From Actinomycetota bacterium (GTDB lineage Bacteria; Actinomycetota; UBA4738; CALAEC01): DNA of 64,000 bases. Within the stretch, counting starts at the first letter, position 1. Each line of letters opens with the position of its first letter. Of the stretch, positions 5,929 through 38,678 are shown piece by piece. The notes below the pieces were generated by a model. That model did no database searches. It was not told where the DNA came from and saw only the letters and a list, made by a program, of their open reading frames with translations. The stretch is from NCBI GenBank assembly GCA_036001425.1, contig DASYUI010000035.1, positions 1,756 to 65,755 of the forward strand, given 5' to 3'. The position numbers and the translations under genes were made by a program.

Positions 5929-6084
5929 CCTCGTTCCCCCGATATCGACGCCGGACATTCCCGACCGTTCGCCAACGGCTCACGAAAATGGGCATTCCGA
6001 GTCTTGTCTTGGCCCACCCCCTTCTGGTACCGTGGCGCGGTTCTGTGGCCAGCTTGGTCAGCTAACCCGGAGGAAAGCCCGCCC

Positions 6085-20571: not shown

Positions 20572-20617
20572 AGACTCTCACCTCCTCGTAGCTTTCAGCT
20601 GGCCTCTCCGGCCACGT

Positions 20618-22248: not shown

Positions 22249-22329
22249 TTGCCCGAAGGAGTGGGCGGCCGCGTTCCCGAAGGGGAGACGGAATTGCCCG
22301 ATGAGCGGGTCGGGTTGCCCGAATGGGCA
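22249..22329. promoter_or_regulatory. array of TTGCCCGA-type direct repeats ending in the palindrome TGCCCGAATGGGCA, upstream of the sheath gene
   Basis: Plus-strand copies: TTGCCCGAAGG (22249), TTCCCGAAGG (22274), TTGCCCGATG (22294), TTGCCCGAATG (22315). Spacing is 25/20/21 bp. TGCCC-GAAT-GGGCA lies at 22316-22329. Confidence 0.5.
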
Positions 22330-23086: not shown

Positions 23087-25177
23087 CTACAGGCGCGGCG
23101 GGCCATCCAACGCCTCGCTTGTCGACACCAGGTGGAAATATGGTCCGAACTCCGCCTCCACGCACAACCGCCCGAGCTTGCGGTACTCGCGCTGGACCCC
23201 TCGGATGAGGTCCTCCACCGAAACGGATCTCTCCGCGTCCGCCGCCAGGTACGCAGCCGTGACGCAGATGTTCCGGATGTTCCCACCGGAGAATTCGAAG
23301 GACTTGGCCAGGAAATCGAGGTCCAGGTCTCCCTCCCTGGGGACCTCCGGGCTCAGGCACTTCTCCCACAGCGAACGGCGATGTCTCTCATCGGGCATGG
23401 GGAAGTCCACGATGACGTCGAGCCTTCGGGTGAACGCCTCGTCGAGGTTGGCCCTCAGGTTGGTGGCCAGGATGGCCATCCCCTCGAAGGTCTCCATCCG
23501 CTGCAGCAGGTATGCCACCTCGATGTTGGCGTAGCGGTCGTGGGCGTCCTTGACCTCGGACCTCTTTCCGAACAACGCGTCCGCCTCGTCGAAGAAGAGG
23601 ACGCCGTTGACACCCTCCGCCTCGGAGAAGATGCGTTCGAGGTTCTTCTCGGTCTCTCCGATGTACTTGTCCACCACGGTGGCCAGGTCGATCGTGTAGA
23701 GGTCCAGCCCGAGCTCGCCGGATAGCACCTCCGCGGCCATGGTCTTCCCGGTCCCGGACTCACCCGCGAACAGGGCCGTGATCCCCCCGCCCCGGCCGCC
23801 CCCCTTCCGCATCCCCCACTCCCCGAGGACGCGCTCCCGGTACCGCGCCCGGGCGGACAACTCGTGGAGGTGAGCGAGGGTATCGGCCGGGAGGACGATG
23901 TCTTGCCACCCAACCGCCGGCTCGATCCGGCGGGCCAGCCTCTCCAACCCAGCGGCGTTCTGGGCCCGGGCCCCCGCCCTGAGGTCGGTCGGGTCAATGG
24001 ATCGGCCGGCGTAGGAGGCTCGCAGGCGAGCGGCCGTGGCCGCCCTGGCCACCTGTTCGGGGCCGAGGCGGAAGGGGGTCATGACCGCCGCCGCGTCCAG
24101 CTCCTTCGGGGTGTCGCCGTCGAGGTGGGCCCGCCACATGCCGGCTCGCTCCTCCGGCCCGGGGAGGCCGACGTCGACGACCAGCGGGATCTCCCGTGAC
24201 CACATGGGGTCCCAGTTCCGTGTCCCGGTGATCACCACGGGCCAGGGGATCTCGGCGAATGCCCGCACGCCGAGCGCTCCGCGCTCCACGACCTGTTCGA
24301 CCGGCCCCACCACCAGACCAGCCCCTCGCAGGCCCGCCTCGCGCCCCGCCGCTGCGGCGATGGCGGTGGGGTCGTCGTCAACGGTCAGTCGAGCCAGGTC
24401 GAGGGCCAGCGTGGGGATCCCCATCCCGGCGAAGGCGGCCGCGGCAAGCCCTCGTCCCGCGCCCGCCAGCCGCTCCCGCAGGTAGCAGAGCCGCGCGCCC
24501 TCGGCGATGGCGCGAGCCAGGGCCTCCCCGTCTTGCTCGTCCCAGCTGATCGGAGAGGCCAGGAGTGTGGTGAGCGCGTGGTCGGGGCGGTCGTCGCCCA
24601 AGAGATGAGCCGCGACCCGGTCCGGGACCCGCAGGGTCCGCGTGAGGAACGGCCGATCGGGGTCCTCCACCAGGATGAGCCCCGCCTCGACCAGAGGGCT
24701 TCCCCCCTGTAGCCTTCGCCGGGCGCGGGCGTCGGCCGGTGAGGCTCCGCACAGTTCCAGAGACAGGCCCACGCTGGCCCGCCGGCGGGTCACGTCGTCG
24801 TGCAGATACCCGTAGAGGCGTTCGAACCGCGCGTCGAGGTCCGGCGCCAGCGAAACGAGGAGAAGCTCGGCATCGAGGGGCTCGAGATCGAAGGTCTTTG
24901 CCAGGCGCCGGAGCCGGATGTCCTCTCCCTCGGCCTCAGCGGTGTCGGCGGCCTTCTCCACGCGCGACAGGTCCTCGGCTGCCGCGGGATCGGGCGGGGG
25001 CGGTGGGGCCGGGGCATCCAGGAGCTGGTCGACCTGCTCTTCCGTGAGGTAGAGACCACGGAAGGGGTCGTCGGGTTCCGGGTCTCCGGCCCGGCGGCGG
25101 TTGACTGCCGCCTTCACGCGAGCCTCCACGACGGCCAAGCGACCCAGGAGGTGCTCGAGCGATGGAGACGGCTTCAT
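23087..25177 (-). CDS. AAA+ ATPase (Afp15-like)
   Basis: Walker A 'FAGESGTGKTMAAEVL', Walker B 'VLFFDEADALFGKR', and 'ILATNLRANLDEAFTRRLD'. ATG 25177 overlaps the DUF4255 stop (ATGA). The ORF-track extension to 25624 is Arg/Pro-rich, a frame artefact. Confidence 0.9.
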   Translation of the reverse strand: MKPSPSLEHLLGRLAVVEARVKAAVNRRRAGDPEPDDPFRGLYLTEEQVDQLLDAPAPPPPPDPAAAEDLSRVEKAADTAEAEGEDIRLRRLAKTFDLEPLDAELLLVSLAPDLDARFERLYGYLHDDVTRRRASVGLSLELCGASPADARARRRLQGGSPLVEAGLILVEDPDRPFLTRTLRVPDRVAAHLLGDDRPDHALTTLLASPISWDEQDGEALARAIAEGARLCYLRERLAGAGRGLAAAAFAGMGIPTLALDLARLTVDDDPTAIAAAAGREAGLRGAGLVVGPVEQVVERGALGVRAFAEIPWPVVITGTRNWDPMWSREIPLVVDVGLPGPEERAGMWRAHLDGDTPKELDAAAVMTPFRLGPEQVARAATAARLRASYAGRSIDPTDLRAGARAQNAAGLERLARRIEPAVGWQDIVLPADTLAHLHELSARARYRERVLGEWGMRKGGGRGGGITALFAGESGTGKTMAAEVLSGELGLDLYTIDLATVVDKYIGETEKNLERIFSEAEGVNGVLFFDEADALFGKRSEVKDAHDRYANIEVAYLLQRMETFEGMAILATNLRANLDEAFTRRLDVIVDFPMPDERHRRSLWEKCLSPEVPREGDLDLDFLAKSFEFSGGNIRNICVTAAYLAADAERSVSVEDLIRGVQREYRKLGRLCVEAEFGPYFHLVSTSEALDGPPRL

Positions 25178-25890
25178 CGGGAATCGCGGGAGCGGGTGCT
25201 CCTTCCGGCCTTCGCCTGCTTCCCGGCCGGCTTTCGCTCCTCTTCCTTCTCCTTCGTAGCGTCCCCGTTGCCGGACAAGGTGCGCTGCACCCGACCACCT
25301 GCCTGGTCTCGCGTGCCTTCTGGGCCGGCGAGCTTGACGACGGGCTCCGCGAGCACCGGCGGGCCCGCCTCGACCATCCGGCGGGGGTCGAACGGCGCGG
25401 TGATCACCAGGTCCAGTGAGGGCTTGAGCTCTCCGCCAAGTGCGGACCAGACGTCGGAGAGGTTTCGGTCCTTGGGGGGCGGCAGCCCCACCTGAGAGAT
25501 GACGGCCAGCGGCTGGTCGGCCAGCGATCCGACGAGCACGTCTCGAGGCAGCGCGTCGCGACGGAGGAAGCAGGTCAGCACCGCCGCAAGGAGCCGGTGC
25601 TCGTCCTCCGGACGCTGGGTCCACGCGGTGAGGAGATAGGAAAGCTTGAATCGCCGAGGAGGCGGCCGTCGTTCGGTCACCCGGCCGGTCTTGTCCCTGA
25701 TCTCCTCGTACTCGACCTGGCGCCGCTCGAGGTCCTCCCGGATGTCGTACAGGTAGACGCTGACCGTGGGACTGTTGCGGCGGGCCGCCCAGTCCTTCGT
25801 CGGCGCGTCGAACGTCACCTCGACGTCGGCGCCGTTCAGCGCCTCGCGCCGGATGAGGTTCCGGAGCGCCTCATCGACCTCGTGGATCAT
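25174..25890 (-). CDS. DUF4255 / Pvc16-Afp16-like tail terminator (cap) protein
   Basis: 'MIHEVDEALRNLIRREAL...VEVTFDAPTKDWAARRNSPTVSVYLYDIREDLERRQ...FKLSYLLTAWTQRPEDEHRLLAAVLTCF' is the typical Pvc16 N-terminal domain pattern. Confidence 0.85.
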   Translation of the reverse strand: MIHEVDEALRNLIRREALNGADVEVTFDAPTKDWAARRNSPTVSVYLYDIREDLERRQVEYEEIRDKTGRVTERRPPPRRFKLSYLLTAWTQRPEDEHRLLAAVLTCFLRRDALPRDVLVGSLADQPLAVISQVGLPPPKDRNLSDVWSALGGELKPSLDLVITAPFDPRRMVEAGPPVLAEPVVKLAGPEGTRDQAGGRVQRTLSGNGDATKEKEEERKPAGKQAKAGRSTRSRDSR

Positions 25891-25980: not shown

Positions 25981-26009
25981 CGGCGCCCGGCAAAGAGGGC
26001 CGGGCGCCG
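25981..26009 (-). terminator. perfect 11-bp hairpin after the LuxR-family gene
   Basis: CGGCGCCCGGC-AAAGAGG-GCCGGGCGCCG lies 24 nt downstream of the stop at 26033. It has no U-tract, which fits the I-shaped type common in GC-rich genomes. Confidence 0.5.
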
Positions 26010-26032
26010 GACGGGTCCGCGCCGATCCGAGC

Positions 26033-26659
26033 CTAGATCAGTCCCTGCCGAAGTGCGAAGGCGACCGCGTGGGACCGGTTGCGCAGATGGAACCGGGTGG
26101 TGATGTCGTGGATGATGTTCTTGATCGTCCGCTCCGAGTACGCGAGCTGCTGGGCGATCTCCGCGGTGTCCATTCCTTCGGCCACGAGCTTCAGCACGCC
26201 GAGCTCCCGCTCGGTCAGGCCCGAGAAGGTAAGACCCCGAGGAGCCAGCACATGACGCTGGAGCCTGCCCACCTGAGACAGCAAGCGTCCCAAGAGGTCA
26301 GGTGGAACGGTGCCATCGCCCTGGGCGGCCGCGACCACTGCCCTGGTCAGGATCTCAGGCGTGGCTTCCGAGCGCCGAAGGAGCCCACAGGCGCCCGCCT
26401 CGACCGCCGCCACCAGGCCACCGTCGTCGGGCCGGGCCACGACCAGGACCACCCGAGGACCGCCGCTGCGCTGGATGGCCTTGATGACCCGAAGGGTCTC
26501 ATCGTCGACCTCGTCCGCGGCGACGACCGCGACATCGGCCTGGTCGACCTCGGTCTCGCTCAGGACTTCGAGCTCAGGGCGTCCGCGAAGCTCGGCCGCG
26601 ATCCCCGCCTGTGAGATCGGGTCTCGCGCATAGACGAACACGGGTACGCGCTCCGTCAT
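26033..26659 (-). CDS. LuxR/NarL-family regulator with degenerate (pseudo-)receiver domain
   Basis: C-terminal HTH 'LTERELGVLKLVAEGMDTAEIAQQLAYSERTIKNIIHDITTRFHL'. The N-terminal REC-like fold starts 'VFVYARDPIS', where NarL has 'LLIDDHP'. Confidence 0.85.
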   Translation of the reverse strand: MTERVPVFVYARDPISQAGIAAELRGRPELEVLSETEVDQADVAVVAADEVDDETLRVIKAIQRSGGPRVVLVVARPDDGGLVAAVEAGACGLLRRSEATPEILTRAVVAAAQGDGTVPPDLLGRLLSQVGRLQRHVLAPRGLTFSGLTERELGVLKLVAEGMDTAEIAQQLAYSERTIKNIIHDITTRFHLRNRSHAVAFALRQGLI

Positions 26660-26735
26660 TTCCCCTCCTCCTCCTGCTCAGGTCCGTCGGGCATCCTAGG
26701 AGGGCAATCTTTCCGGGCACTTCACCTGGGCTTAA

Positions 26736-26766
26736 CGGGCATGGGAAGTTGCCCGGATGTTCTCCT
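26736..26766 (+). promoter_or_regulatory. conserved element CGGGCA-N8-TGCCCGGATGTTCTCCT (copy A)
   Basis: 23 fixed positions are identical to copy B at 32185..32215. It lies in the divergent region between the LuxR gene and the 26814 operon. Confidence 0.5.
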
Positions 26767-26813
26767 CGGTGGCTCTAAAGGGCTATTGACCTGCCTGGTA
26801 GTATCCTCGCGTC

Positions 26814-28097
26814 GTGGGCGCGACTGCCATGCTGCGGCCGGCCACCATTCGCGTGGATCCTGGCGGAGAGACCAGCTTCGACATCAGCGTTCGAAACACT
26901 GGGACGATTGTCGATGAGTTCTCCTTCGAGATCCGCGGGGATCCGGCTCCCTGGGCCGAGGTCGAGCCGGGGGTCCTCCGGCTGTTCCCCGGCGCGGAGG
27001 GGATCGTCACGGTCAGGTTCCGCCCTCCACGGACGCCGACGACGCGGGGGGGTCTCACACCCTTCGGCGTGAAGGTCATCTCCAAGGAGGACCCCGAGGG
27101 CACGATCGTCGAAGAGGGGACCCTCGAGGTCGGCGAGTACAGCGACAACAACGTGGAGATGATCCCCCGGACCTCCCGCGGGCGGATGGGCGCCTCTCAC
27201 GACGTCTACATCGACAATCGCGGGAACCAGCGGGTCAGCACGACCATCGACGCCACCGATCCCGACGACAACCTCCAGTTCCAGATCAGCCCGCCGTCGA
27301 CGACGGTCGACCCGGGGAACGCCACTCGGGTGAGGGTCCGGGCCCAGCCGAAGAAGCGGTTCCTCCGAGGAGCGCCGAAGACACATCCGTTCAAGGTGAT
27401 CGTCCAGCCGGAGGGCGACCAGGCCCTCCAAGCCGACGGCACCATGCTTCAGGAGCCGCTGATCCCGAAGTGGCTCATCCCGGCGCTGCTCGCCCTGGCG
27501 GCGCTGGTGCTGATCTGGTTCTTCCTCCTCAAACCGGCGGTTGAGACGGCAGCTGTGAGCGCCGTCCCCAAGAACGTCGCCAAGAACGACGAACTGGCCG
27601 CCGCCGAGGAGCGGATGAACGAGGCTCTCGCAGCCCAGGCCGCGGCGGCCGAGAAGCAGGCCAAAGCATTGCAGAAGCAGATCGACGAGCTGGCGGGTGG
27701 GGCCGCGGCCGGCGAAACCAGCGACCAGCGACTCGACCCCAGCAACGAGGCGTTCCTGGACAAGAACAACTTCGAAGCGTCGTTCACCGTCCCCAAGGGC
27801 AAGACCCTCAAGATCACCGACCTGGTCCTGCAGAACCCCGCGGGAGCGACCGGACGAATCCTCATCATCCGTGATGATCTGGTGGATGACGCGAAGGACG
27901 CCACGCTCCTCGTGTCAGCTCTCGAGAACTTCCGAGACCTCGACTACCATTTCGTGACTGCGGTGGAGATCGGGGAGGGTCAGAACCTGCTGGTGAGGGT
28001 GACGTGCGACAAGCGCGCCGGACAGACAGTCGCCGAGGCCCAATCCGCCTGTAATCAGGCGGCCGTGTACTACACCGGTTCTCTGGCCAAGGCGTAG
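26814..28097 (+). CDS. bitopic membrane protein: two Ig-like (CARDB/NEW3-like) N-terminal domains, one TM, coiled coil + beta-rich C-terminal domain
   Basis: 'ATIRVDPGGETSFDISVRNTGTIVDEFSFEIRGDPAPWAEVEPGVLRLFPGAEGIVTVRFRPP' and 'VYIDNRGNQRVSTTIDATDPDDNLQFQISPPSTTVDPGNATRVRVRAQP'. TM 'WLIPALLALAALVLIWFFLL'. There is no N-terminal signal peptide, so the N-terminus is probably cytoplasmic. GTG start; ATG 26829 is an alternative. Confidence 0.8.
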   Translation: MGATAMLRPATIRVDPGGETSFDISVRNTGTIVDEFSFEIRGDPAPWAEVEPGVLRLFPGAEGIVTVRFRPPRTPTTRGGLTPFGVKVISKEDPEGTIVEEGTLEVGEYSDNNVEMIPRTSRGRMGASHDVYIDNRGNQRVSTTIDATDPDDNLQFQISPPSTTVDPGNATRVRVRAQPKKRFLRGAPKTHPFKVIVQPEGDQALQADGTMLQEPLIPKWLIPALLALAALVLIWFFLLKPAVETAAVSAVPKNVAKNDELAAAEERMNEALAAQAAAAEKQAKALQKQIDELAGGAAAGETSDQRLDPSNEAFLDKNNFEASFTVPKGKTLKITDLVLQNPAGATGRILIIRDDLVDDAKDATLLVSALENFRDLDYHFVTAVEIGEGQNLLVRVTCDKRAGQTVAEAQSACNQAAVYYTGSLAKA

Positions 28098-28099
28098 CC

Positions 28100-29731
28100 G
28101 TGCGGCTCCGCAGCCTCTCCCTTGCCCTCCTCCTCAGCGTCTTCCTAACCGGGCTGGGACTCCCGATGGCCGCGGCCGACCCATCCGATCCGACGCCCGA
28201 CCCAACACCGACTTCGGACCCGACCCCCAGCCCGGATCCCTCCACCGATCCGACCCCGGACCCCCAGCCGACCGTGACTCCGCCCGACGACGGTGGGGCG
28301 GGAGACAACCCTCCCCCCACGCCCCCTCCCGATCAGGACGGCAAGGACGGCAAGAGCGGCAAGGGGAAGCACGGCCAGAACGGCAACCGGGACGGGAAGC
28401 GGAAGAAGGATCCGTTCGCCATGGCCGGGCCGCAAAACACGGCCACGCTCGTGTCTCTGCTCGCCGAGCTGACCCAGCGGGGAATGTCCCTCGAGAAGGC
28501 CTTCCTCAAGGTGGTCGGACCCTTCCCCGTCGCGGGCCTGGCCTGGTGGAGCGACGACTGGCACGCGCCCCGGTGTTGCCCCTTCCCGCACCTCCATCAG
28601 GGCCTCGACATCTTCGCGCCGATGGGCACCCCCTTGGTAGCGGCGGCGGATGGGTACATCAGCCAGAAAGTCAATTCCCCCTCGGCTACAGGGTTCGGCC
28701 TCGAGGTCACCGACGCCCGGAACGTCCAGTACTTCTACGCGCACCTATCGGCCTTCGAACCGGGCATCGAGGTAGGAACCCACGTCGAGATGGGCCAGGT
28801 CATCGGGTACGTGGGTGACACCGGGAACGCCCGGGGGACCATCCCCCACGTGCACTTCGAGCGCCAGCCAGACGGCGTTCCGGCCCCGCCCAAGCCCTGG
28901 GTCGACCGGTGGCTCAGGATCGCCGAGCGGAAGGCCATGCTGCTCGTGCAGGAGGTCACGGGGAGGAAGCCCAAGGTGGAGCGCCTGACCTTCCGGCTCA
29001 CCAGACTGTTCGACCTGGTCGATGCGGAGCGCACCGACCTCGACGACGCGGCCACCGGGGACGCCGGGGAAATCCTCGTGCTGACCGGCCTCCATCCGGC
29101 TGCCACGTACGACATGGCTCGGGACACTGCCGGGGCCATGGCCTGGGAGATCGACTGGGGCGACGAGGCCGTCGACCAGATCGCCACCGGGATCAAGGCG
29201 TATCGGCAGGAGTTGACCGAGCAGACGCTCATGGGCATCCTCCACGATCCCGAAGAGGGGCAAACGGCGATCCCAGCGGGCGGGATGCTTCCCGGAAGCG
29301 AGGATGTGGGCCTGGCCGAAGGCATCGGCGATCCAATGGCACCCGTCGCCACGGAGAGCGGCGCACTGGTCAACGTGCCCTCCGTTCCCGGGGGCGTGAG
29401 CGCGCACGACGGGACCGGCACGGAGGGCAGCCTCCCTGTCGGCGCGCCGGGGGCCCCGGTCGCGTCGGGCAGCCAGGTCGCCGATACGGGCACCGGCTCT
29501 TCGGTTCCCTCGATCGGCAGGGAGAGCGACACGTCGAGCTCATGGAGGGCGGGTGTCGGGCCCGGCCTGGTCAGGGTCCTTGCCCTCTACAGTGCGTTCT
29601 CGACCGGGCTCCCGGGCATGACCCAGACCCTGTGGCACGAGATCCTGGCGGCGGTGCAGGATGAGGGCGCACGCGGCCTCCTGGGAAACGAGACCGAGGC
29701 CCAGTTCCCGGCCGCCGCAGGAAGGCCCTAG
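28100..29731 (+). CDS. secreted M23 family metallopeptidase
   Basis: Signal peptide 'MRLRSLSLALLLSVFLTGLGLPMAAA' and a DPTP-rich linker. M23 motifs 'HQGLDIFAPMGTPLVAAADG' and 'GDTGNARGTIPHVHFE'. The GTG lies 2 nt after the upstream stop. Confidence 0.9.
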   Translation: MRLRSLSLALLLSVFLTGLGLPMAAADPSDPTPDPTPTSDPTPSPDPSTDPTPDPQPTVTPPDDGGAGDNPPPTPPPDQDGKDGKSGKGKHGQNGNRDGKRKKDPFAMAGPQNTATLVSLLAELTQRGMSLEKAFLKVVGPFPVAGLAWWSDDWHAPRCCPFPHLHQGLDIFAPMGTPLVAAADGYISQKVNSPSATGFGLEVTDARNVQYFYAHLSAFEPGIEVGTHVEMGQVIGYVGDTGNARGTIPHVHFERQPDGVPAPPKPWVDRWLRIAERKAMLLVQEVTGRKPKVERLTFRLTRLFDLVDAERTDLDDAATGDAGEILVLTGLHPAATYDMARDTAGAMAWEIDWGDEAVDQIATGIKAYRQELTEQTLMGILHDPEEGQTAIPAGGMLPGSEDVGLAEGIGDPMAPVATESGALVNVPSVPGGVSAHDGTGTEGSLPVGAPGAPVASGSQVADTGTGSSVPSIGRESDTSSSWRAGVGPGLVRVLALYSAFSTGLPGMTQTLWHEILAAVQDEGARGLLGNETEAQFPAAAGRP

Positions 29732-29735
29732 TCGG

Positions 29736-31811: not shown

Positions 31812-32094
31812 GCCTCCGGGCAGGGTGGAGCTGCCTTCGCCACGCGAAGGCCGGGATCCCTCGGTATGCGGGCCCATCAGGTCCATGCTCGCCGCAATGC
31901 CCCCCAACCCGGCAGAGGAGCCAGTGTAGCCCCTGGGGCAAGGGCCGGTTCCCCATGGGGCAGGTCAACCCTCGGCCGGATCGTGCTCAGCACGCCGCCG
32001 AAGGCGACCCGGTGATCGCCCAACACCCAGAGGTCACGGCTCCGTTATCCCGTCCCCGATGGGACGAGGTGATCAACTTAGTCATATCGGGCTA

Positions 32095-32123
32095 TTGAGC
32101 AACTTCTGCGCGGCCCGTAGTCT
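32095..32123 (+). promoter_or_regulatory. sigma70-like promoter candidate for the RTX gene
   Basis: TTGAGC (32095-32100), a 17-nt spacer, then TAGTCT (32118-32123). This would give a 5' UTR of about 250 nt containing element copy B. Confidence 0.3.
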
Positions 32124-32184
32124 CGTCTTTCCGACCTGGCCACCTGAATGAGTCATTCATCGCTCGCGTCTCCGGATGTCCGAA

Positions 32185-32215
32185 CGGGCAGCGCTTCCTG
32201 CCCGGATGTTCTCCT
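32185..32215 (+). promoter_or_regulatory. conserved element CGGGCA-N8-TGCCCGGATGTTCTCCT (copy B)
   Basis: Identical arms, 8-nt spacer and 17-mer as copy A. An extra CCGGATGTC lies 30 nt upstream (32172-32180). Confidence 0.5.
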
Positions 32216-32378
32216 TGTTGCCTCTGAGGTGAGCCACAATCGGCCAGTACGCTCAACCCAAGTGGTTGCTCAGGTTTCTGTTCGCTTGCCGTCAGGCGGC
32301 CGGACCGTCGTGCCCGGAGCCGCCATTTCCTTTGATCCATCGAGCGGGACCTTTGGCCCGCGAAGGAGGTCCCCGTAG

Positions 32379-35300
32379 ATGGCTCTCAGTCACAGGCTCC
32401 GCTCTTCTGGACGCACCCGTCTGGTTGCCGGCTTGGTCGTCACAGCAGCGGCCTTGGCCTATTCCCTGATCCTTGCTCCACGGGCATTCGCCGTCAGCAG
32501 CTGCAGCAACGATGGTGCCGGCAACCTCTTCGTGATCCTCAATGCGGCTGGTGACGACGCCAGGGTCGTGCTGCTCGCCGGGACCATCCAGGTCTTCGAC
32601 GCTCCGGCTGCAGACGGTACGGGCGGCACGCTGCTCGCATGTGGAGGAGCGACTCCCACCACGTCCAACATCAACACCATTCACTTCGTGTATGGGGGCG
32701 GGAACGGGGGGGACGAGCTCGTCTCCATCGACATGTCGGGCGGGGCCTTCCTCGACGCCACACCAGTCGGAGAGGGCGATCTCACTGAGGAGATCGAGTT
32801 CAACGTTCCCGACATGGGTCTGGGGGCCGACGCCCTCGTCATCATCGGCGGGGCGGGAGCTGACCGGATCACATTCGGAGCCGCGGGCATCAACCCGAAC
32901 ACCGATGCGAGCCCTCCTCCTCCGCCCTCTCCCCCCGACGACTCTGACGTGGACATCTTCCTGGCCAGCCCAGCCAATACCGAGACACACCGTGTGGACG
33001 CGGGGGCGGGCGCGGACGTCATAAGCGGCGCCGGAGACGCGGTTACGGGAGGCGCCTTCGCTTCGCCGCTCACGTTCGACGGAGGGACCGCTAACGACAC
33101 GCTGACCGGTGGCACCGCGGCCGACAACCTGTCGGGTGCGGCAGGCGACGACACCCTCAACGGTGGAACCGGGGCCGACACGCTCTCCGGAGGAGACAAC
33201 AACGACACCATCAGCGGCGGCGACGGCGCGGACGTCCTCGATGGGGGGAACGGCGACGACGACCTTACGGGGAACGAGCAAAACGATGCCATCGATGGGA
33301 GCGCCGGCGACGACGATCTGACTGGCGGTAACGGCGACGACACCCTCGACGGGGGGGCGGACGCCGACACGGTCAACGGTAGCGATGGGATAGACGTCCT
33401 CAGCGGAGGATCGGGGGGCGACACCGTTTCCGGAGGACCGGGCAACGACACCCTGGCCGGAGGACCGGGCAACGACACCCTGGCCGGTGGCGGCGACAAC
33501 GATACCGGCGATTACTCCGCCGCAGCGGGAGCGGTGACGGTCAACCTGACCACCGGTGTCGGTACGGGCGAGGGCGCCGACACGCTGACGGAGATAGAGA
33601 ACCTGACCGGCTCGGCCTTCGCCGACTCCCTCACCGGGGACAACAGCGTTGCGATCGGCAACCTGCTCCAGGGGGGCGCGGGCAACGACACCCTCGACGG
33701 AGCCGCCGGCACCGACAACGTGTCGGGAGGTTCCGGGAACGACACGCTCGACGGTGGTCTCGGGGCCGACACCTTCGCCGGGGGCTCCGAAACCGATACC
33801 GCTACCTATGCGGCCCGGGTGGCCACGGTATTCGTATCACTCGACGGCTCCCCCAACGACGGAGAAGCCCTTGAGGCTGACAACGTTGGGCTGGACATCG
33901 AACGAGTCGTCGGCGGCAGCGGCGACGACGAGCTGACCGGCGGAAGTGGCAACGACACGCTGGAGGGAGGACCGGGCCAGGACACGCTCGTGGGAGGAGC
34001 GGGTAACGACAGCTTCGACGGCGGCACCGGACTGGAAGACAAAGCCGACTACAACGCCGCCACCGGTTCAGTCACGGTGGACCTCTCCTTGGGAACCGCC
34101 AGCGGACAGGGCTCCGACACGCTTAGCGCCGTCGAAAACGTAACGGGTTCTCCCTTCGCCGACACTCTTGTCGGCGACAGTGTCGCCAATGACCTGTTGG
34201 GCGATGCCGGCAACGACACGCTGGTCGGCAGAGCGGGGAACGACGGCCTCGACGGAGGCCTCGGCACCGACACCGTCGACTACTCCTCTGCCGGGGGGGT
34301 CACGGTCAATCTGGCGACCGGGACCTCAACAGGCGACGGCGCGGACACCTTGACCTTGATTGAGAACGTCACCGGGTCTCCGGCCGACGATGTGATCACC
34401 AGCGACAACCTCACGACCAACACCAATCTTCTCTCCGCTGGGAACGGAAACGATGCCGTCGCTGGTGGCGATGGGGTGGAGATCATCCTCGGAGGAGCCG
34501 GCAACGACGTGCTCAGCGGCGGGGCCGAGAACGACAACATCGACGGCGAGCAAGGCCTTGACACTATGAACGGAGGCTTGGGTAACGATTCACTGGACGG
34601 TGGCGACGGCAACGACTCTCTGACAGGCGGAGCGGGCGACGACCCCCTCGACGGCGGCGCCGGAACCGACACGGCGTTCTACTCAGGCGCTGGAGCCCCG
34701 GTGAACGTGAACCTGGCCGCCGGAACGGCAACGGGCGGCGACGGGACCGACTCCCTCTCCCTGATCGAGAACGTAACCGGCTCTACCTTCGGCGACACCC
34801 TGACTGGCGACGGAGGGAACAACCTCCTTGCTGGAGGTGCGGGTGCCGACAACATGTCCGGGGCTGACGGCGACGATAGCCTCAACGGAGGACCGGGCCC
34901 CGACACCATGGACGGCGGAAACGGCGCCGACAGCCTCAACGGAGACACCGAGAATGACACACTGGTCGGCGGCGCCGGGAACGACTCTCTCGTCGGCGGG
35001 CTGCATATCGATTTCGCCGACTACTCGGGCTCCTCCTCTCCCATGACCGTGAATCTCGGGGCCGGGTCCGCTACCGGACAAGGAACGGACACGCTCGCCG
35101 GCGTCGAGAATGTCCTGGGTTCCGCCTTCGACGATGTCATCACCGGTGACGGACTGGGGAACGAACTCTCCTCCCTTGGCGGTAACGACGTCGTGGCGGG
35201 GGCCCTGGGCAACGACACGCTCTCCGGTGGCGGCGGAATCGATAATGTCGATTTCTCACCTTCGGCCACCCCAGTCACGGTCAACCTTGGGGCGGGGTCC

Positions 35301-38300
35301 GCGACGGGGGAAGGAACGGATAGCCTCTCGGGCTTCGAGAACGTCACCGGGTCGGCCTTTGGGGACACCCTGACCGGAGACGCACTGAACAACGTCCTGG
35401 CGGCCGGAGACGGAACGGACTCGCTGGACGGTGGTCTCGGGGATGACGCTTTGAATGGCGGAGCAGGAACCGACACGGCAGTCTTCACCGCCGCAACGAG
35501 CGGAGTCACGGTGAACCTATTCGCCGGGATCGCCATCGGTCAGGGCTCGGACACTCTCTCCGGGGTCGAAGACGTCATCGGCTCCAACTTCGCGGACGAT
35601 CTCCGCGGAAACCTCGGCCCCAACACACTTCACGGGGCAGACGGTGCCGACAGCCTGGAGGGCAATGCCGGCAACGACTTCCTGTTCGGCGGCGACCAGG
35701 CCGACATCCTGAACGGCGGCGACGGAAACGACTCTCTCGATGGAGAGAACCACAACGACGTGCTGGTCGGTGCGGCGAACGACGACAGCCTTACGGGAGG
35801 CATCGGCAGCGACACGGCCGACTACTCCACTGCTCCGGGGCTCATGACCGTGGACATCGATAACGGGACCGCGACCGGTCACGGTAACGACACTCTCACG
35901 ACCGTCGAGAACGTCACCGGGTCGGCTTTTGGGGACGATCTCCGAGGGGACGGAGGTCAGAACACCCTGAGCGGTGGAAGCGGGAACGACACCGTCGCGG
36001 GCCGCGACGGCGACGACTCGCTGGACGGCGGATCCGGCACGGACATCGCGGACTATTCGGAGGCGGGGGCCGGAGTCACCGTCGACCTGTCTGTCGGGAT
36101 AGCGCAGAACACGTTCGGCGCGGGCACCGACACCCTCTCAACGCTCGAGAACCTGACGGGTTCTGCGTTCAACGACACTCTGCGGGGCAACGCGTCGGCA
36201 AACGTCCTCGACGGTGGGTTCGGCGCCGACGACATGGCCGGAGGAGCGGGGACCGACACGGCGACTTACCAGAGCCGCGTCAGCTCAGTCACCGTGCTCA
36301 TCGACGGTCTTGCGAACGACGGCAACCCAGCGGCCGACGGCGGAGCAGACAACGTGAGGACCGACGTCGAGAACGTGATCGGGGGCGCCGGCGACGACAC
36401 CCTTATCGGAAGCCTCCTCGACAACGAGCTCCGCGGAGGTGCAGGCGAGGACACCTTGTCCGGCGGGACTGGCGTCGATGCGCTGTTCGGGGAGAACGGC
36501 AACGACGAGCTGGCGGGTGGAGCCGGCGCTGACCTGCTGGACGGCGGTGCGGACGACGACCAACTCTCAGGCGGAACCGAGGACGACTCTCTCCAGGGCG
36601 GTTCCGGCATCGACACCATGGACGGCGGCACGGGCAACGACTCCCTGGTCGGCGGGGCAGATGGCGACCTCCTGGATGGCGGCGATGGGAACGACTCGCT
36701 CGACGGCGGGGAAGGCATCGACGATCTCTCCGGTGGGATCGGCGACGACATCATCAGCGGCGGCCCCGCGGCTGACGTCTTCGCCGGCGGCAGCGGCCGT
36801 GACACTGCGACGTATGAGACGCGCACAGAGTCGGTGAAGGTTACCCTCGACGGCCTCGCGGACGACGGGACCGACCTGACACTCGACGGAGTCTCTGAGG
36901 AAGGCGACAACGTTCCCACCGACATCGAGGACGTGATCGGTGGGCTCGGCGACGACCACCTGATCGGCAACGACCTGGTGGATAACGGACTCTCCGGCGG
37001 AGGTGGTACCGACATCCTCGAGGGTCTCGGCGGAAACGATACCCTCGATGGAGGCGCGGGAGACGATCAGTCTTCGCCAGCCATCCTCGGCGGACCCGGA
37101 GATGACACGCTCATGGGCGGCCTGGGCAACGACACCCTTGACGGAGGTCCGGGCATCGACAGCGTCAGTGGTGGAACCGGGAACGACACCCTGATCGGTG
37201 ACGAGGGGGCGGACACGCTGTCCGGCGGTGCGGGGCCGGACGACCATGCCGACTACTCCAGCAGGGCGGCCCCTCTGGCCATCTCGCTCGACGGTGTGGC
37301 AAACGACGGCTCCGACTTCGACTTCGATGGCGTCGGCGACGAGGGTGACAACGTGGCGATCGATGTCGAGAACGTGACCGGCGGATCCGGAGACGACATC
37401 ATCACGGGAAGCCTCCTGGCCAACGATCTGTTCGCCGGACCGGGCAACGATGTCATCGATGGTGGCTTGGGAACCGATGTCCTCGCCGGAGGCCCCGGAG
37501 TGGACACTGCCAGCTACAGGACCCGCGCGGCGGCTTTGAACGTCAGCCTGGACGCCGTTGCAAACGACGGCCAGGCCGGGGAGAACGACGCGGTCGGCGT
37601 TGCTACTGGTGATCTCGCGGACGACCCCGACATCGAGAACGTGATCGGCGGTGCGGGCAGCGACTCCATCACGGGCAGCACTGTGGGAGCCCCAAACACG
37701 ACACCCAACCAGCTCGAGGGTGGCGCCGGAAACGACACCATCGACGGTGGCGATGGGGACGACCTCCTGTTCGGTGGGCTGGTAGCGTCTCCGACTCCCC
37801 CGCCGGCGGATGGGAACGACCTACTGGTCGGCGGTCTCGGGGACGACGATCTCCGGGGCGGCCTCAACAACGACAGCCTGTCGGGCGGCGATGGGGACGA
37901 CTCCCTCCTGCCGGGACTCGGGGACGACTCCGTCGACGGTGGGGCGCATCTCGTCGAAGGGGACACGGTCTCCTTCGCTGGCGCGGCCGGGCCCGGGGGC
38001 GTCACGGTCAACCTCCTGGACAACCCCGCCACCCCGACCGTCGAGGGGACGGCGACCGGAGAGGGAACCGATTCTCTCGCCATCGGCACCATCGAAAACG
38101 TGGTCGGGTCTAACTTCGCCGACATAATCCGCGCTGACAGCGTAGCGAACGTCCTGACCGGTGGATCGGGAGCCGACCTGCTCGACGGACGCGGCCAGAA
38201 CGACACCCTGTCCGGTGGCGCCGGCAACGACGATCTGTTCGGACGCTCAGGCAACGACACCCTGAACGGCGGCTCCGGCGCCGACCTGCTCGTCGGCGAG

Positions 38301-38678
38301 AGCGGGCGCGACGACCTGAATGCGGGCGCCGGCAGCGGCGACGTGCTGAAGGGCGGTACGGATGAAGACGACCTCAACGGCGGAGACGGTGCCGACCTCC
38401 TCGACGGCGGACCACAGGCCGACGTCCTGAACGGCGGCGAAGGGACCGGTGCCGACATCCTGCGGGGTGGCGACGGCGCTGACGACCTGCTCGGTGGGTC
38501 TGGCCGCGACGACCTCTTCGGCGAGGGCGGGAACGACGACCTGTTCGGCAACCGAGGGCCCGACGACCTCGACGGCGGGGCGGGCAACGACGATCTGAAT
38601 GGGGGTCCGGGGAACGACCGGTGCGCACAGCGCGGGGGTTCGGGCGCCGAGATCTCCTGCGAGGCGCCACTCCCCTGA
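32379..38678 (+). CDS. giant (2099 aa) RTX-type calcium-binding repeat protein with N-terminal Sec signal
   Basis: RBS GAAGGAGG. Signal 'RLVAGLVVTAAALAYSLILAPRAFA'. Dozens of GGxGxD nonapeptides ('GGAGNDTLDGG'). Recurrent modules of the form 'ADYS...VTVNL..G.ATG.G.DTL..IENV.GS.F.D.L.GD'. Confidence 0.95.
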   Translation: MALSHRLRSSGRTRLVAGLVVTAAALAYSLILAPRAFAVSSCSNDGAGNLFVILNAAGDDARVVLLAGTIQVFDAPAADGTGGTLLACGGATPTTSNINTIHFVYGGGNGGDELVSIDMSGGAFLDATPVGEGDLTEEIEFNVPDMGLGADALVIIGGAGADRITFGAAGINPNTDASPPPPPSPPDDSDVDIFLASPANTETHRVDAGAGADVISGAGDAVTGGAFASPLTFDGGTANDTLTGGTAADNLSGAAGDDTLNGGTGADTLSGGDNNDTISGGDGADVLDGGNGDDDLTGNEQNDAIDGSAGDDDLTGGNGDDTLDGGADADTVNGSDGIDVLSGGSGGDTVSGGPGNDTLAGGPGNDTLAGGGDNDTGDYSAAAGAVTVNLTTGVGTGEGADTLTEIENLTGSAFADSLTGDNSVAIGNLLQGGAGNDTLDGAAGTDNVSGGSGNDTLDGGLGADTFAGGSETDTATYAARVATVFVSLDGSPNDGEALEADNVGLDIERVVGGSGDDELTGGSGNDTLEGGPGQDTLVGGAGNDSFDGGTGLEDKADYNAATGSVTVDLSLGTASGQGSDTLSAVENVTGSPFADTLVGDSVANDLLGDAGNDTLVGRAGNDGLDGGLGTDTVDYSSAGGVTVNLATGTSTGDGADTLTLIENVTGSPADDVITSDNLTTNTNLLSAGNGNDAVAGGDGVEIILGGAGNDVLSGGAENDNIDGEQGLDTMNGGLGNDSLDGGDGNDSLTGGAGDDPLDGGAGTDTAFYSGAGAPVNVNLAAGTATGGDGTDSLSLIENVTGSTFGDTLTGDGGNNLLAGGAGADNMSGADGDDSLNGGPGPDTMDGGNGADSLNGDTENDTLVGGAGNDSLVGGLHIDFADYSGSSSPMTVNLGAGSATGQGTDTLAGVENVLGSAFDDVITGDGLGNELSSLGGNDVVAGALGNDTLSGGGGIDNVDFSPSATPVTVNLGAGSATGEGTDSLSGFENVTGSAFGDTLTGDALNNVLAAGDGTDSLDGGLGDDALNGGAGTDTAVFTAATSGVTVNLFAGIAIGQGSDTLSGVEDVIGSNFADDLRGNLGPNTLHGADGADSLEGNAGNDFLFGGDQADILNGGDGNDSLDGENHNDVLVGAANDDSLTGGIGSDTADYSTAPGLMTVDIDNGTATGHGNDTLTTVENVTGSAFGDDLRGDGGQNTLSGGSGNDTVAGRDGDDSLDGGSGTDIADYSEAGAGVTVDLSVGIAQNTFGAGTDTLSTLENLTGSAFNDTLRGNASANVLDGGFGADDMAGGAGTDTATYQSRVSSVTVLIDGLANDGNPAADGGADNVRTDVENVIGGAGDDTLIGSLLDNELRGGAGEDTLSGGTGVDALFGENGNDELAGGAGADLLDGGADDDQLSGGTEDDSLQGGSGIDTMDGGTGNDSLVGGADGDLLDGGDGNDSLDGGEGIDDLSGGIGDDIISGGPAADVFAGGSGRDTATYETRTESVKVTLDGLADDGTDLTLDGVSEEGDNVPTDIEDVIGGLGDDHLIGNDLVDNGLSGGGGTDILEGLGGNDTLDGGAGDDQSSPAILGGPGDDTLMGGLGNDTLDGGPGIDSVSGGTGNDTLIGDEGADTLSGGAGPDDHADYSSRAAPLAISLDGVANDGSDFDFDGVGDEGDNVAIDVENVTGGSGDDIITGSLLANDLFAGPGNDVIDGGLGTDVLAGGPGVDTASYRTRAAALNVSLDAVANDGQAGENDAVGVATGDLADDPDIENVIGGAGSDSITGSTVGAPNTTPNQLEGGAGNDTIDGGDGDDLLFGGLVASPTPPPADGNDLLVGGLGDDDLRGGLNNDSLSGGDGDDSLLPGLGDDSVDGGAHLVEGDTVSFAGAAGPGGVTVNLLDNPATPTVEGTATGEGTDSLAIGTIENVVGSNFADIIRADSVANVLTGGSGADLLDGRGQNDTLSGGAGNDDLFGRSGNDTLNGGSGADLLVGESGRDDLNAGAGSGDVLKGGTDEDDLNGGDGADLLDGGPQADVLNGGEGTGADILRGGDGADDLLGGSGRDDLFGEGGNDDLFGNRGPDDLDGGAGNDDLNGGPGNDRCAQRGGSGAEISCEAPLP

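What the first reader, a model, noticed from the sequence alone, without database searches (positions are those of the whole stretch)
26660..26813. 31-nt element CGGGCA-N8-TGCCCGGATGTTCTCCT in the LuxR / membrane-protein divergent region (copy A)
Positions 26736-26766 match 32185-32215 (upstream of the RTX gene) at all 23 specified positions with the same 8-nt spacer.

- The flanks are loosely similar too: ...CTCT.A.GG..., and GGGCTATTGA occurs in both regions.
- The arms are the everted form of the TGCCCG half-site seen at the CIS promoters. Another CCGGGCA lies at 26713-26719 and GGGCAA at 26702-26707.
- Read as DNA, it looks like a dimer operator, possibly autoregulating the divergent LuxR gene.
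- Read as RNA, it would be a 6-bp hairpin followed by a CUCCU anti-Shine-Dalgarno-like tail.
- TGG-TAGTAT (26796-26804) lies 9 nt before the GTG at 26814, so the transcript might be leaderless.
Basis: partly seen in the sequence, partly recalled or inferred. Interest (0 to 1): 0.65.

Follow-up and report, generated by a model that had tools for sequence, protein, structure and literature searches.

The report
Regulator binding site in injection-system promoters
The repeated 31-base element is a DNA control site, very probably where the neighbouring LuxR-type regulator of a phage-tail-like injection system binds to switch on two promoters; this is an ordinary kind of element, but its core is conserved across three bacterial phyla.

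Summary
CGGGCA-N8-TGCCCGGATGTTCTCCT occurs at 26736-26766 and 32185-32215 and nowhere else in the window, against 0 expected by chance. Both copies are kept at the same syntenic positions in four related lineages.

The core is the inverted repeat GGGCA-N7-9-TGCCC. It lies upstream of the same Ig/transmembrane gene in 46 of 79 genome loci from Actinomycetota, Chloroflexota and an unclassified bacterium, where about 0.25 would be expected by chance.

It works as DNA, not RNA:
- A -10 box (TAnnnT) lies downstream at 44, 55, 66 or 78 nt, a lattice of about 11 nt. It is followed 6-9 nt later by the start codon, so the mRNA is leaderless. In the window these are TAGTAT at 26799 and GTG at 26814.
- The LuxR gene's own -10 (TAGGAT) lies exactly 38 nt from the other arm.
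- Copy B has the same geometry (N44-TACGCT-N8-GTG) upstream of the RTX gene.
- There are no compensatory arm changes, folding is no better than shuffles, and Rfam gives no hit.

GGGCA half-sites are about fivefold enriched in the injection-system (eCIS) promoter regions. The adjacent NarL/FixJ-type LuxR protein, with an almost invariant recognition helix, is the likely binder; this is inferred, not shown. The GATGTTCTCCT tail is specific to this clade and its role is unclear.

This is a new member of a known kind, of moderate interest.

The parts
26736..26755 (.). Copy A core: inverted repeat CGGGCA-N8-TGCCCG, the putative operator.
   Evidence: Conserved in orthologues. GGGCA-N7-9-TGCCC lies at the equivalent place in 46 of 79 genome loci.
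26756..26779 (+). Copy A tail: GATGTTCTCCT followed by CGGTGGCTCTAAA. It is shared with copy B and specific to this clade. GTTCT (26759) lies 22 nt from the left arm, where other lineages carry a third half-site GGGC(A/G).
26710..26742 (+). Three 11-nt direct repeats, TTTCCGGGCAC / TTCACCTGGGC / TTAACGGGCAT. The last one contains the left arm. They correspond to T(T/C)AACG-N5-T(T/C)AAC-GGGCA in Chloroflexota.
26693..26698 (-). -10 box TAGGAT of the LuxR promoter, 38 nt from the left arm.
   Evidence: TAGGGT or TAGGAT at exactly this distance in 19 loci from both phyla.
26780..26789 (+). GGGCTATTGA box. AAGGGCTA lies at about -33 to -26 of the Ig/TM promoter, the same place as TCGGGCAA upstream of the conserved TAGGCG in the sheath upstream region. 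Read as a proximal half-site-like box.
   Evidence: read from the sequence.
26799..26804 (+). -10 box TAGTAT of the Ig/TM promoter, 44 nt after the right arm.
26814..28097 (+). Ig-like/transmembrane protein gene. The true start is GTG 26814 (conserved MGA N-terminus) and the mRNA is leaderless.
26033..26659 (-). NarL/FixJ-family LuxR (GerE HTH) regulator gene, the candidate binder.
32185..32204 (.). Copy B core: inverted repeat CGGGCA-N8-TGCCCG.
32205..32229 (+). Copy B tail: GATGTTCTCCT followed by TGTTGCCTCTGAGG.
32248..32253 (+). -10-like TACGCT, 44 nt after the right arm (the same spacing as copy A). Conserved in all 5 lineages.
32262..32378 (+). GTG 8 nt after the -10 box opens a 38-codon frame that ends with TAG directly before the RTX ATG. 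This could be a leaderless upstream ORF or simply the 5' leader.
   Evidence: intact in 3 of 4 lineages with full sequence, frameshifted in L018.
32379..38678 (+). Giant RTX-repeat protein gene downstream of copy B.
22249..22322 (-). Sheath-gene upstream region with four direct TCGGG(C)AA half-sites at 21, 21 and 24 nt spacing.

Best explanation
**What it is.** The element is a double-stranded-DNA regulatory site. Its core, the inverted repeat CGGGCA-N8-TGCCCG, is the strongest member of a family of GGGCA half-sites that mark the promoters of this phage-tail-like injection system (eCIS).

**Who binds it (inferred).** The most likely binder is the NarL/FixJ-type LuxR regulator encoded next door.
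- A dimer would sit on the inverted repeat.
- Further copies would occupy the flanking direct half-sites spaced 11 nt apart.

**What it does (inferred).** From this position the protein would activate the leaderless promoter of the Ig/transmembrane-M23 operon. Assuming transcription starts 7 nt after each -10 box, the site is centred near -65 of that promoter and near -59 of the LuxR gene's own promoter, so it would also feed back on the regulator gene.

Copy B places the same site, at the same 44-nt distance from a -10 box, in front of the RTX gene. This brings that gene into the same regulon.

**Shown versus inferred.**
- Shown: sequence conservation, geometry, phasing and enrichment.
- Inferred: the identity of the binder, the sign of regulation and the role of the GATGTTCTCCT tail.
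For: **Conservation.**
- There are two exact copies against 0 expected. Both are conserved in syntenic orthologues.
- GGGCA-N7-9-TGCCC lies 60-250 nt upstream of the Ig/TM gene in 46 of 79 loci from Actinomycetota, Chloroflexota and an unclassified bacterium.
- Across 858 kb there are 58 occurrences against about 14 in shuffles, and about 0.25 would be expected in that upstream window.

**Geometry.**
- The -10 box TAnnnT occurs after the right arm only at 44-46, 54-56, 65-68, 77-80 and 85-86 nt.
- It is followed by a leaderless start codon.
- In 17 sequence clusters the phasing statistic is R = 0.84 at a period of 11-11.25 nt, and 0 of 5000 random sets reach this.
- In L015, two duplications of 21 and 12 nt keep the distance on this lattice.
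- On the other strand, TAGGGT or TAGGAT lies exactly 38 nt from the left arm in 19 loci.
- Copy B has the same N44-TAnnnT-N8-GTG layout in all 5 lineages.

**Half-site family.** GGGCA/TGCCC is the most enriched of the 20 permutations of its letters. It is enriched 5.4-fold in the window's eCIS intergenic regions and 5.0-fold in Chloroflexota sheath/Pvc16 divergent regions.

**The regulator.**
- The LuxR gene is divergent from the Ig/TM gene in most loci.
- It is 97-99% identical among relatives whose other proteins are about 70% identical.
- Its recognition helix, SERT(V/I)KNIIHD, is nearly invariant in 71 loci.
- It is a NarL/VraR/DevR-type protein.

**Literature.**
- GerE regulators are the conserved eCIS regulators (PMC8213781).
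- The LuxR-type SCO4263/SlpR is required for transcription of the sheath operon (PMC2000904, PMC8505568).
Against: - No binding or expression data exist for these uncultured organisms, and the transcription starts are inferred from -10 boxes only.
- The spacer varies between 7 and 9 nt, and a few loci have 0 or about 19-21 nt. This is unusual for a rigid dimer site.
- Eighteen loci keep the T(N)AACG direct repeats but lack the strict inverted repeat, and some loci have the repeat without an adjacent LuxR gene. A second factor may therefore be involved.
- A SARP-like regulator (Trans_reg_C plus BTAD) is also encoded in the cluster.
- The conserved 11-nt tail is not explained by a LuxR half-site.
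- The source genome outside the 64-kb window could not be scanned. The metagenome scan returned only chance hits.
Confidence: 0.68

Rival explanations
1. The element is a DNA operator, but it is bound by a different protein or acts mainly as a repressor site. Candidates are the SARP-like STAND regulator at 6004-8994 or a host factor.
For: - The left flank consists of 11-nt direct repeats, the typical layout for OmpR/SARP winged-helix proteins.
- A protein with Trans_reg_C and BTAD domains is encoded in the cluster and next to the Ig/TM gene in some loci.
- The direct repeats and the inverted repeat occur separately in some loci.
Against: - The SARP-like gene appears in only a few of the 80 fetched loci, whereas the LuxR gene is nearly always adjacent.
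- Inverted GGGCA arms suit a LuxR-type dimer better than a tandem binder.
- The repeats do not end 8 bp upstream of the -10 box as classical SARP sites do.
- The promoters lack good -35 boxes, which favours activation.
Confidence: 0.15
2. The element is itself an ECF-sigma-type promoter. The -35 box would be T(T/C)AAC, the spacer 16-18 nt and the -10 box CG(A/G/T)N. The palindromic arms would be incidental or an overlapping operator.
For: - AAC directly precedes GGGCA in 64-88% of loci.
- C-G follows TGCC.
- Repeat spacers of 7, 8 and 9 nt give promoter spacers of 16, 17 and 18 nt in the ratio 10:34:7.
- In S. coelicolor the ECF sigma factor SigE drives the eCIS regulator gene sco4263 (PMC6767563).
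Against: - Promoter spacers are not normally conserved, yet both arms are invariant and symmetric.
- The -10 part is not the usual CGTC. It is CGGA here and mixed elsewhere.
- A well-conserved TAnnnT box with a leaderless start already lies downstream at phased distances.
- The T(N)AACG unit is repeated 11 nt upstream, as binding sites are.
- No sigma or anti-sigma gene was found among the 28 window ORFs scanned.
Confidence: 0.08
3. The element is an RNA element: a 6-bp hairpin followed by a CUCCU tail that masks a Shine-Dalgarno sequence or acts as another riboregulator.
For: - The arms can pair and the loop sequence varies.
- A few single changes are compatible with G-U pairs (L065, L076).
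- In copy B an upstream promoter-like site (TTGAGC-N17-TAGTCT, 32094-32122) could transcribe through the element, and the RTX gene has a GAAGGAGG ribosome-binding site.
Against: - In copy A the element lies upstream of both inferred transcription starts, and the downstream gene is leaderless with no Shine-Dalgarno sequence to mask.
- No compensatory double changes occur in any locus, and the arms are invariant across phyla.
- Folding is no better than shuffles.
- Rfam gives no hit even at E-value 1.
- The CUCCU tail is absent outside this clade.
Confidence: 0.04
4. The element is a dispersed REP-like repeat, or a neutral remnant of a local duplication, with no regulatory role.
For: - It is a short palindromic intergenic repeat present in two copies.
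- The rest of the source genome could not be searched.
Against: - Only 2 copies occur in 64 kb, and both lie in 5' regulatory regions rather than between convergent genes.
- Both are retained at orthologous positions in lineages with about 70% protein identity.
- The core is conserved across phyla at one specific promoter, with a phased distance to the -10 box.
- Scans of viral and metagenome collections gave only chance matches.
Confidence: 0.03

Closest known systems
Cluster-situated LuxR-type activator of Streptomyces type IId contractile injection systems (SCO4263 / SlpR) and its target promoters
   Same: - It is a small LuxR/GerE-family regulator encoded at the edge of an eCIS cluster.
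- In S. coelicolor it is required for transcription of the sheath operon (PMC2000904), and particles are absent in the slpR mutant (PMC8505568).
- GerE-domain regulators lie next to 25.8% of eCIS loci (PMC8213781).
- Divergent promoter regions are a feature of the cluster (PMC10020575).
   Different: - None of the papers read describes a DNA-binding motif for SCO4263/SlpR, and orthology of the window's protein with SCO4263 was not tested.
- In this window the regulator is paired with an Ig/transmembrane gene found in Chloroflexota and non-Streptomyces Actinomycetota.
- The motif also precedes an RTX gene.
Operators of NarL/FixJ-family response regulators (NarL 7-2-7 sites, the DosR/DevR box, ComA boxes)
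   Same: - The half-sites are short and G-rich and appear in inverted and direct arrangements. Several sit in one promoter, and the arrangement is flexible.
- ComA uses inverted plus direct elements (PMC4797271).
- From memory, the DosR half-site TTSGGGAC resembles TTCGGGCA, and the helix E(K/R)T(V/I)KN is shared.
- The protein matches VraR, NarL and DevR structures.
   Different: - The arm spacing is wider, at 8 nt between pentamers and 13 bp centre to centre.
- The receiver domain looks atypical (read from the alignment, not tested).
- The resemblance to the DosR box is recalled, not tested here.
SARP/OmpR-type direct-repeat sites (heptamers at 11-bp phasing)
   Same: - The left flank carries 2-3 direct repeats with an 11-nt period.
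- A protein with Trans_reg_C and BTAD domains is encoded in the cluster.
   Different: - The core of the finding is an inverted repeat, not a tandem one.
- The repeats do not abut the -10 box at 8 bp.
REP / dispersed palindromic intergenic repeats
   Same: It is a short imperfect palindrome found in intergenic DNA in more than one copy.
   Different: - There are only two copies, both promoter-linked and conserved with their neighbouring genes.
- The distance to the -10 boxes is phased.
- Neither copy lies at the 3' end of a gene.

Membership tests
Operator of a LuxR/GerE-type (NarL/FixJ) regulator | Paired short half-sites in inverted orientation, with additional half-sites nearby. | tested here: met
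   CGGGCA-N8-TGCCCG occurs twice. GGGCA half-sites are enriched 5.4-fold in the eCIS intergenic regions. Direct half-sites flank the repeat at 11-nt steps.
Operator of a LuxR/GerE-type (NarL/FixJ) regulator | Location in a promoter region at a constrained distance from the core promoter. | tested here: met
   The -10 box lies at 44, 55, 66 or 78 nt (R = 0.84, 0 of 5000 random sets). On the other strand the -10 box lies at exactly 38 nt in 19 loci.
Operator of a LuxR/GerE-type (NarL/FixJ) regulator | The cognate regulator gene is linked to the site and conserved with it. | tested here: met
   The LuxR gene is divergent from the Ig/TM gene in most of the 80 loci. Its recognition helix is nearly invariant.
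Operator of a LuxR/GerE-type (NarL/FixJ) regulator | The regulator binds the site directly, and transcription changes when the site is mutated. | not testable with these tools
   This needs EMSA, footprinting or DAP-seq, plus reporter assays.
Structured cis-regulatory RNA (hairpin plus anti-Shine-Dalgarno) | The element lies inside the transcript it regulates. | tested here: not met
   Copy A lies upstream of the inferred starts on both strands, and the downstream gene is leaderless. This rests on an inference from -10 boxes. Copy B is ambiguous.
Structured cis-regulatory RNA (hairpin plus anti-Shine-Dalgarno) | Base pairs are maintained by compensatory changes. | tested here: not met
   The arms are invariant in 46 loci. 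The variant loci show single-sided changes only.
Structured cis-regulatory RNA (hairpin plus anti-Shine-Dalgarno) | Folding is more stable than chance, or the sequence matches a described RNA family. | tested here: not met
   Folding z-scores are -0.05 to -1.4. Rfam gives no match at gathering score or at E-value 1.
REP-like dispersed repeat | Many copies scattered in unrelated intergenic regions. | tested here: inconclusive
   There are 2 copies in 64 kb and 2 per orthologous locus. The rest of the source genome was not available. Collection scans gave chance hits only.
ECF-sigma-type promoter | AAC-containing -35 box, 16-18 nt spacer and CGT-type -10 box. | tested here: inconclusive
   The AAC and the spacer length fit. 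The -10 part is CGGA here and mixed elsewhere, and the spacer arms are invariant, which is atypical.
ECF-sigma-type promoter | A cognate sigma or anti-sigma gene lies nearby. | tested here: not met
   None was found among the 28 window ORFs scanned against Pfam.
SARP-type activator site | Tandem heptamers at 11-bp phasing, ending 8 bp upstream of the -10 box. | tested here: not met
   The 11-nt repeats exist on the left flank. However, they lie 60 nt or more from the Ig/TM -10 box and do not end 8 bp from the LuxR -10 box.

The most novel reading that the evidence does not exclude
The inverted repeat is the common 'CIS box' of the master regulators of type IId contractile injection systems. 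On this reading it travelled with the gene island across Actinomycetota and Chloroflexota.

- The roughly 85-bp module (box, phased -10 box and leaderless GTG) would be a portable promoter cassette.
- In this clade the cassette was copied in front of a giant RTX gene. There it may launch a leaderless 38-codon upstream ORF whose stop codon abuts the RTX start codon.
- The motif could then be used to find cargo and accessory genes of these systems by regulon membership.
Probability: 0.3. Interest if true: 0.55.

Novelty: new member of a known kind. Interest (0 to 1): 0.42.

Why it matters
Contractile injection systems of Streptomyces and Chloroflexota are linked to regulated cell death and development. 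It is known that a LuxR/GerE regulator controls them, but the papers I could read give no DNA target for it.

A defined, cross-phylum half-site (GGGCA, strongest as GGGCA-N8-TGCCC), together with a promoter geometry, offers three things:
- a concrete binding site to test;
- a way to predict regulon members, here an Ig/transmembrane-M23 operon and a giant RTX protein;
- evidence that the conserved membrane-protein gene is expressed from a leaderless mRNA.

As a type of element it is ordinary, namely an operator in a divergent promoter region.

Tried and rejected
**Collection scans**
- The 17-mer scan of viral contigs returned 7 hits. All lack the left arm and the flanks, so they are chance matches.
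- A metagenome scan with a pattern of 20 specified bases returned 5 unrelated hits with no eCIS genes. The source contigs are evidently not in that collection, so no genome-wide copy count was possible.

**RNA reading**
- Rfam was searched at gathering score and at E-value 1, and both strands were folded. Nothing was found.

**Promoter readings of the element itself**
- Sigma-70 reading (TTAACG-N18-GATGTT): rejected because the -10 part is not kept in relatives.
- Sigma-54 reading (GG-N10-GC): rejected because the spacing is off by one in most loci. From memory, Actinomycetota also lack sigma-54.
- TTGACT on the minus strand as the -35 box of the LuxR promoter: rejected because the spacer to TAGGGT is 20 nt.

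**Other leads**
- The promoter scanner found no sigma-70 consensus site in 26000-33000.
- The first look-up of the Ig/TM protein with the GTG start found nothing, because public gene calls start at ATG 26829.
- The upstream ORF in copy B as a conserved peptide is undecided, because L018 is frameshifted.
- The homologue search with the LuxR protein gave no named Streptomyces protein among the top 120, so orthology with SCO4263 remains untested.

Full report
**1. The observation**

The two copies are exactly as described. CGGGCA-N8-TGCCCGGATGTTCTCCT lies at 26736-26766 and at 32185-32215 on the + strand. With up to three mismatches allowed these are the only matches in the 64-kb window, and no match occurred in 100 dinucleotide-preserving shuffles. 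The smaller details also check out:
- CCGGGCA at 26713 and GGGCAA at 26702.
- GGGCTATTGA in both regions.
- TGGTAGTAT ending 9 nt before GTG 26814.
- The loosely similar CTCT-A-GG flank.

**2. Context**

The window comes from a metagenome; identical contigs exist in JGI and Logan assemblies. Its closest genome relative is an uncultured Actinomycetota MAG. It carries a phage-tail-like contractile injection system (eCIS) on the - strand:

| Gene | Coordinates | Strand |
|---|---|---|
| Baseplate J | 11957-13906 | - |
| VgrG-like | 14376-16160 | - |
| Tube | 16169-17005, 20122-20577 | - |
| Sheath | 20618-22153 | - |
| eCIS-core proteins | within the cluster | - |
| AAA ATPase | 23087-25624 ORF; probably 23087-25177, from gene calls in related loci | - |
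| Pvc16_N | 25174-25890 | - |
| 208-aa LuxR/GerE regulator | 26033-26659 | - |
| Ig-like/transmembrane protein | from 26814 | + |
| M23 peptidase | 28100-29731 | + |
| PD40 beta-propeller protein | 29736 to about 31887 | - |
| 2099-aa RTX-repeat protein | 32379-38678 | + |

Copy A lies between the LuxR gene and the Ig/TM gene. Copy B lies between the PD40 gene and the RTX gene.

**3. Close relatives**

Four further lineages (L012/L021, L013, L015, L018) have Ig/TM proteins 69-78% identical to the window's and share its gene order.
- Both copies are present at the same positions in all of them.
- The arms GGGCA and TGCCC never change.
- The spacer varies: nnnGAAGT in A and GnnCTTCC in B.
- The tail is largely kept, with some changes: ACATGTTCTCCT in two A sites, and GGATGTCCTCCT and GGATGGATTCC in L018.
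- At this distance almost the whole intergenic region is conserved, so more distant relatives were needed.

**4. Distant relatives: the core is an inverted repeat**

An alignment of 42 Ig/TM homologues retrieved 80 genome loci. Most are from Chloroflexota and Actinomycetota, and a few are labelled Dormibacterota. They include Cellulomonas cellasea and an Actinokineospora strain.
- The LuxR gene is divergent from the Ig/TM gene in most of them.
- GGGCA-N7-9-TGCCC lies 60-250 nt upstream of the Ig/TM match in 46 of 79 loci that have upstream sequence. These 46 are from Actinomycetota, Chloroflexota and one unclassified bacterium; no Dormibacterota locus has the strict repeat.
- Over all 858 kb the pattern occurs 58 times against about 14 in shuffles. 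Only about 0.25 would be expected in that upstream window.
- Among 51 loci (the 46 plus the window and its close relatives), the spacer is 8 nt in 34, 7 nt in 10 and 9 nt in 7.
- The left flank is a tandem of 11-nt units, T(T/C)AACG-N5-T(T/C)AAC-GGGCA. In the window these are TTTCCGGGCAC / TTCACCTGGGC / TTAACGGGCAT.
- The right flank tends to be TGCCC-GAnC-GGGC(A/G), that is, a third half-site 22 nt from the first.
- The GATGTTCTCCT tail does not occur outside the window's clade. Its GTTCT occupies the position of that third half-site.

**5. It acts as DNA**

*Downstream side.*
- TAnnnT hexamers, mostly TACACT, occur after the right arm only at 44-46, 54-56, 65-68, 77-80 and 85-86 nt, and almost nowhere else.
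- In 42 of 49 loci this hexamer is followed 6-9 nt later by (A/G)TGGG, the start of the conserved N-terminus MGA.
- The Ig/TM mRNA is therefore leaderless. The hexamer is its -10 box, and the inverted repeat lies upstream of the transcription start.

*Phasing.*
- The distances fall on a lattice of about 11 nt.
- With one representative for each of 17 clusters (70% identity), the Rayleigh statistic is 0.84 at 11-11.25 nt. None of 5000 random sets reaches this.
- L015 is a natural experiment. It has a 21-nt and a 12-nt tandem duplication between the left arm and the -10 box, 33 nt in all. The distance stays on the lattice, at 78 nt from the first right arm or 56 nt from the duplicated one.

*Upstream side.*
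- On the - strand, TAGGGT or TAGGAT lies exactly 38 nt from the left arm in 19 loci of both phyla.
- In the window this box is at 26693-26698, followed by a GGAGGAGG ribosome-binding site and the LuxR start codon.

*Geometry of the two copies.*
- If transcription starts 7 nt after each -10 box, the repeat is centred at about -65 of the Ig/TM promoter and about -59 of the LuxR promoter.
- Copy B repeats this geometry: TGCCC-N44-TACGCT (32248-32253)-N8-GTG (32262), in all five lineages.

**6. The RNA reading fails**
- The arms are invariant across phyla.
- Loci with a changed arm show one-sided changes only: GGGCG/TGCCC, GGGCA/CGCCC and GGGCA/TGCCT.
- Predicted folding of either strand is no better than shuffles, with z between -0.05 and -1.4.
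- Rfam gives nothing at gathering score or at E-value 1.
- In copy A there is no Shine-Dalgarno sequence for a CUCCU tail to mask.

**7. A family of half-sites and a likely binder**

*Half-sites.*
- In the window, GGGCA/TGCCC reaches 12-30 per kb in the four eCIS-side intergenic regions, against 3.1 per kb overall.
- Among the 20 permutations of these letters it is the most enriched: 5.4-fold in the window and 5.0-fold in 14 Chloroflexota sheath/Pvc16 divergent regions.
- The window's sheath upstream region has four direct TCGGG(C)AA units at 21, 21 and 24 nt.
- Read directly from the sequence, a half-site starts 21 nt before a -10 or -10-like hexamer in three upstream regions:
  - sheath: TCGGGCAA, before the conserved TAGGCG (only a weak -10 candidate, since it lacks the final T);
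  - LuxR: TGCCCGGA, inverted;
  - Ig/TM: AAGGGCTA.

*The regulator.*
- The LuxR protein is a NarL/FixJ-type regulator whose closest solved relatives are VraR, ChrA, DesR, NarL and DevR.
- It is 97-99% identical among relatives whose other proteins are about 70% identical.
- Its helix-turn-helix, including SERT(V/I)KNIIHD, is nearly invariant in 71 loci. This fits an invariant half-site.

*Published work.*
- GerE regulators are the conserved eCIS regulators (PMC8213781).
- The LuxR-type SCO4263/SlpR is required for sheath-operon transcription and particle formation in Streptomyces (PMC2000904, PMC8505568).
- I found no described binding motif in these papers or in PMC10020575, PMC12237407 or PMC6767563.

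**8. Mechanism proposed**

*Shown:* a conserved inverted repeat at phased distances from two divergent -10 boxes, duplicated with the same geometry before the RTX gene, and belonging to an eCIS-specific half-site family.

*Inferred:*
- A LuxR dimer binds the repeat, and further protomers bind the flanking direct half-sites.
- The complex activates the weak-(-35) promoters of the Ig/TM-M23 operon and the RTX gene.
- It also autoregulates the LuxR gene.

*Unresolved:*
- The clade-specific tail (GATGTTCTCCT plus the CTCT box, about -55 to -31) may be a diverged third half-site, a docking surface for RNA polymerase, or a site for a second factor.
- One candidate second factor is the SARP-like protein at 6004-8994.

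**9. Rivals**
- *Another binder, or repression.* This remains possible. The 11-nt direct repeats and the inverted repeat occur separately in some loci.
- *ECF-type promoter (AAC-N16-18-CG).* It fits the spacer statistics. It does not explain the invariant symmetric arms, the non-canonical -10 part or the phased downstream promoter.
- *REP-like repeat.* Copy number, position and synteny contradict it, although the rest of the genome could not be scanned.

**10. Verdict**

The DNA-operator reading and the leaderless remark are supported, and the RNA reading is not.

The element is an ordinary kind of thing, a regulator binding site in a divergent promoter. It does, however, define a candidate cross-phylum target motif for the eCIS LuxR regulators, and it links an RTX giant protein to that regulon.

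Noticed in passing
window 32262-32378: GTG 8 nt after the copy-B -10 box opens a 38-codon frame whose TAG stop directly abuts the RTX ATG (TAGATG). The frame is intact in the window, L012 and L015 (L015 has an in-frame 3-nt deletion) but frameshifted in L018. It may be a leaderless upstream ORF coupled to RTX translation, or simply a conserved leader.
   Followed up: partly
L015 9920-10035: The copy-A region carries two tandem duplications. One is 21 nt (spacer end, right arm and GGATGT) and the other is 12 nt (GGCTATTGACCT). Together they add 33 nt, so the distance from the inverted repeat to the -10 box stays on the 11-nt lattice.
   Followed up: yes
window 6004-8994 (+): A 996-aa protein has an N-terminal STAND/AAA_16 ATPase domain and C-terminal Trans_reg_C plus BTAD domains. 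This is a SARP-like DNA-binding module at the C-terminal end, the reverse of the AfsR order. It lies at the far end of the eCIS cluster, and homologues lie next to the Ig/TM gene in a few other loci (L050, L088, L097, L098).
   Followed up: partly
window 32089-32125: GGGCTATTGAG-N16-CGTAGTCT reads as TTGAGC-N17-TAGTCT. It has conserved hexamers and a variable spacer in all five lineages, and lies about 60 nt upstream of copy B. It looks like a second promoter that would transcribe through copy B. The same GGGCTATTGA box lies between copy A and its -10 box.
   Followed up: partly
window 31900-31965 (-): A conserved block, TTGCCCC-N7-TACACT with GGGGCA/TGCCCC repeats, lies upstream of the PD40 gene. 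It is probably that gene's promoter. The conserved ATG at about 31887 suggests the PD40 start lies upstream of the one in public gene calls.
   Followed up: no
window 55258-55335 and 61136-61213: Two direct repeats of 78 nt, 73% identical and 5.9 kb apart, read as the reverse complement of tRNA 3' halves (T-arm, acceptor strand and CCA). ARAGORN and Rfam find no tRNA there. They may be attachment-site remnants of an integrated element.
   Followed up: partly
window 9991-10528: Tandem 24-nt coding repeats lie inside the gene for a zinc-ribbon / NADase-translocation-domain protein (8981-11098, - strand) next to the eCIS baseplate genes.
   Followed up: no
window 26814-28097 and loci L021-L100: The Ig-like/transmembrane protein family has a conserved MGA N-terminus, a single transmembrane segment and a C-terminal NFRDLDYH motif. 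It accompanies the LuxR gene and eCIS genes across Actinomycetota and Chloroflexota, and is also present in a few Dormibacterota-labelled loci. It has no characterised member that I found. It may be a membrane partner of these systems, comparable in role to Streptomyces CisA; homology to CisA was not tested.
   Followed up: no
window 26033-26659 (-): The receiver-like N-terminal domain of the LuxR protein appears to lack the usual acidic pair (it has AAD/ARD) and has Arg where the conserved Lys is expected. This was read from the alignment. It suggests an atypical response regulator that may not depend on phosphorylation.
   Followed up: no
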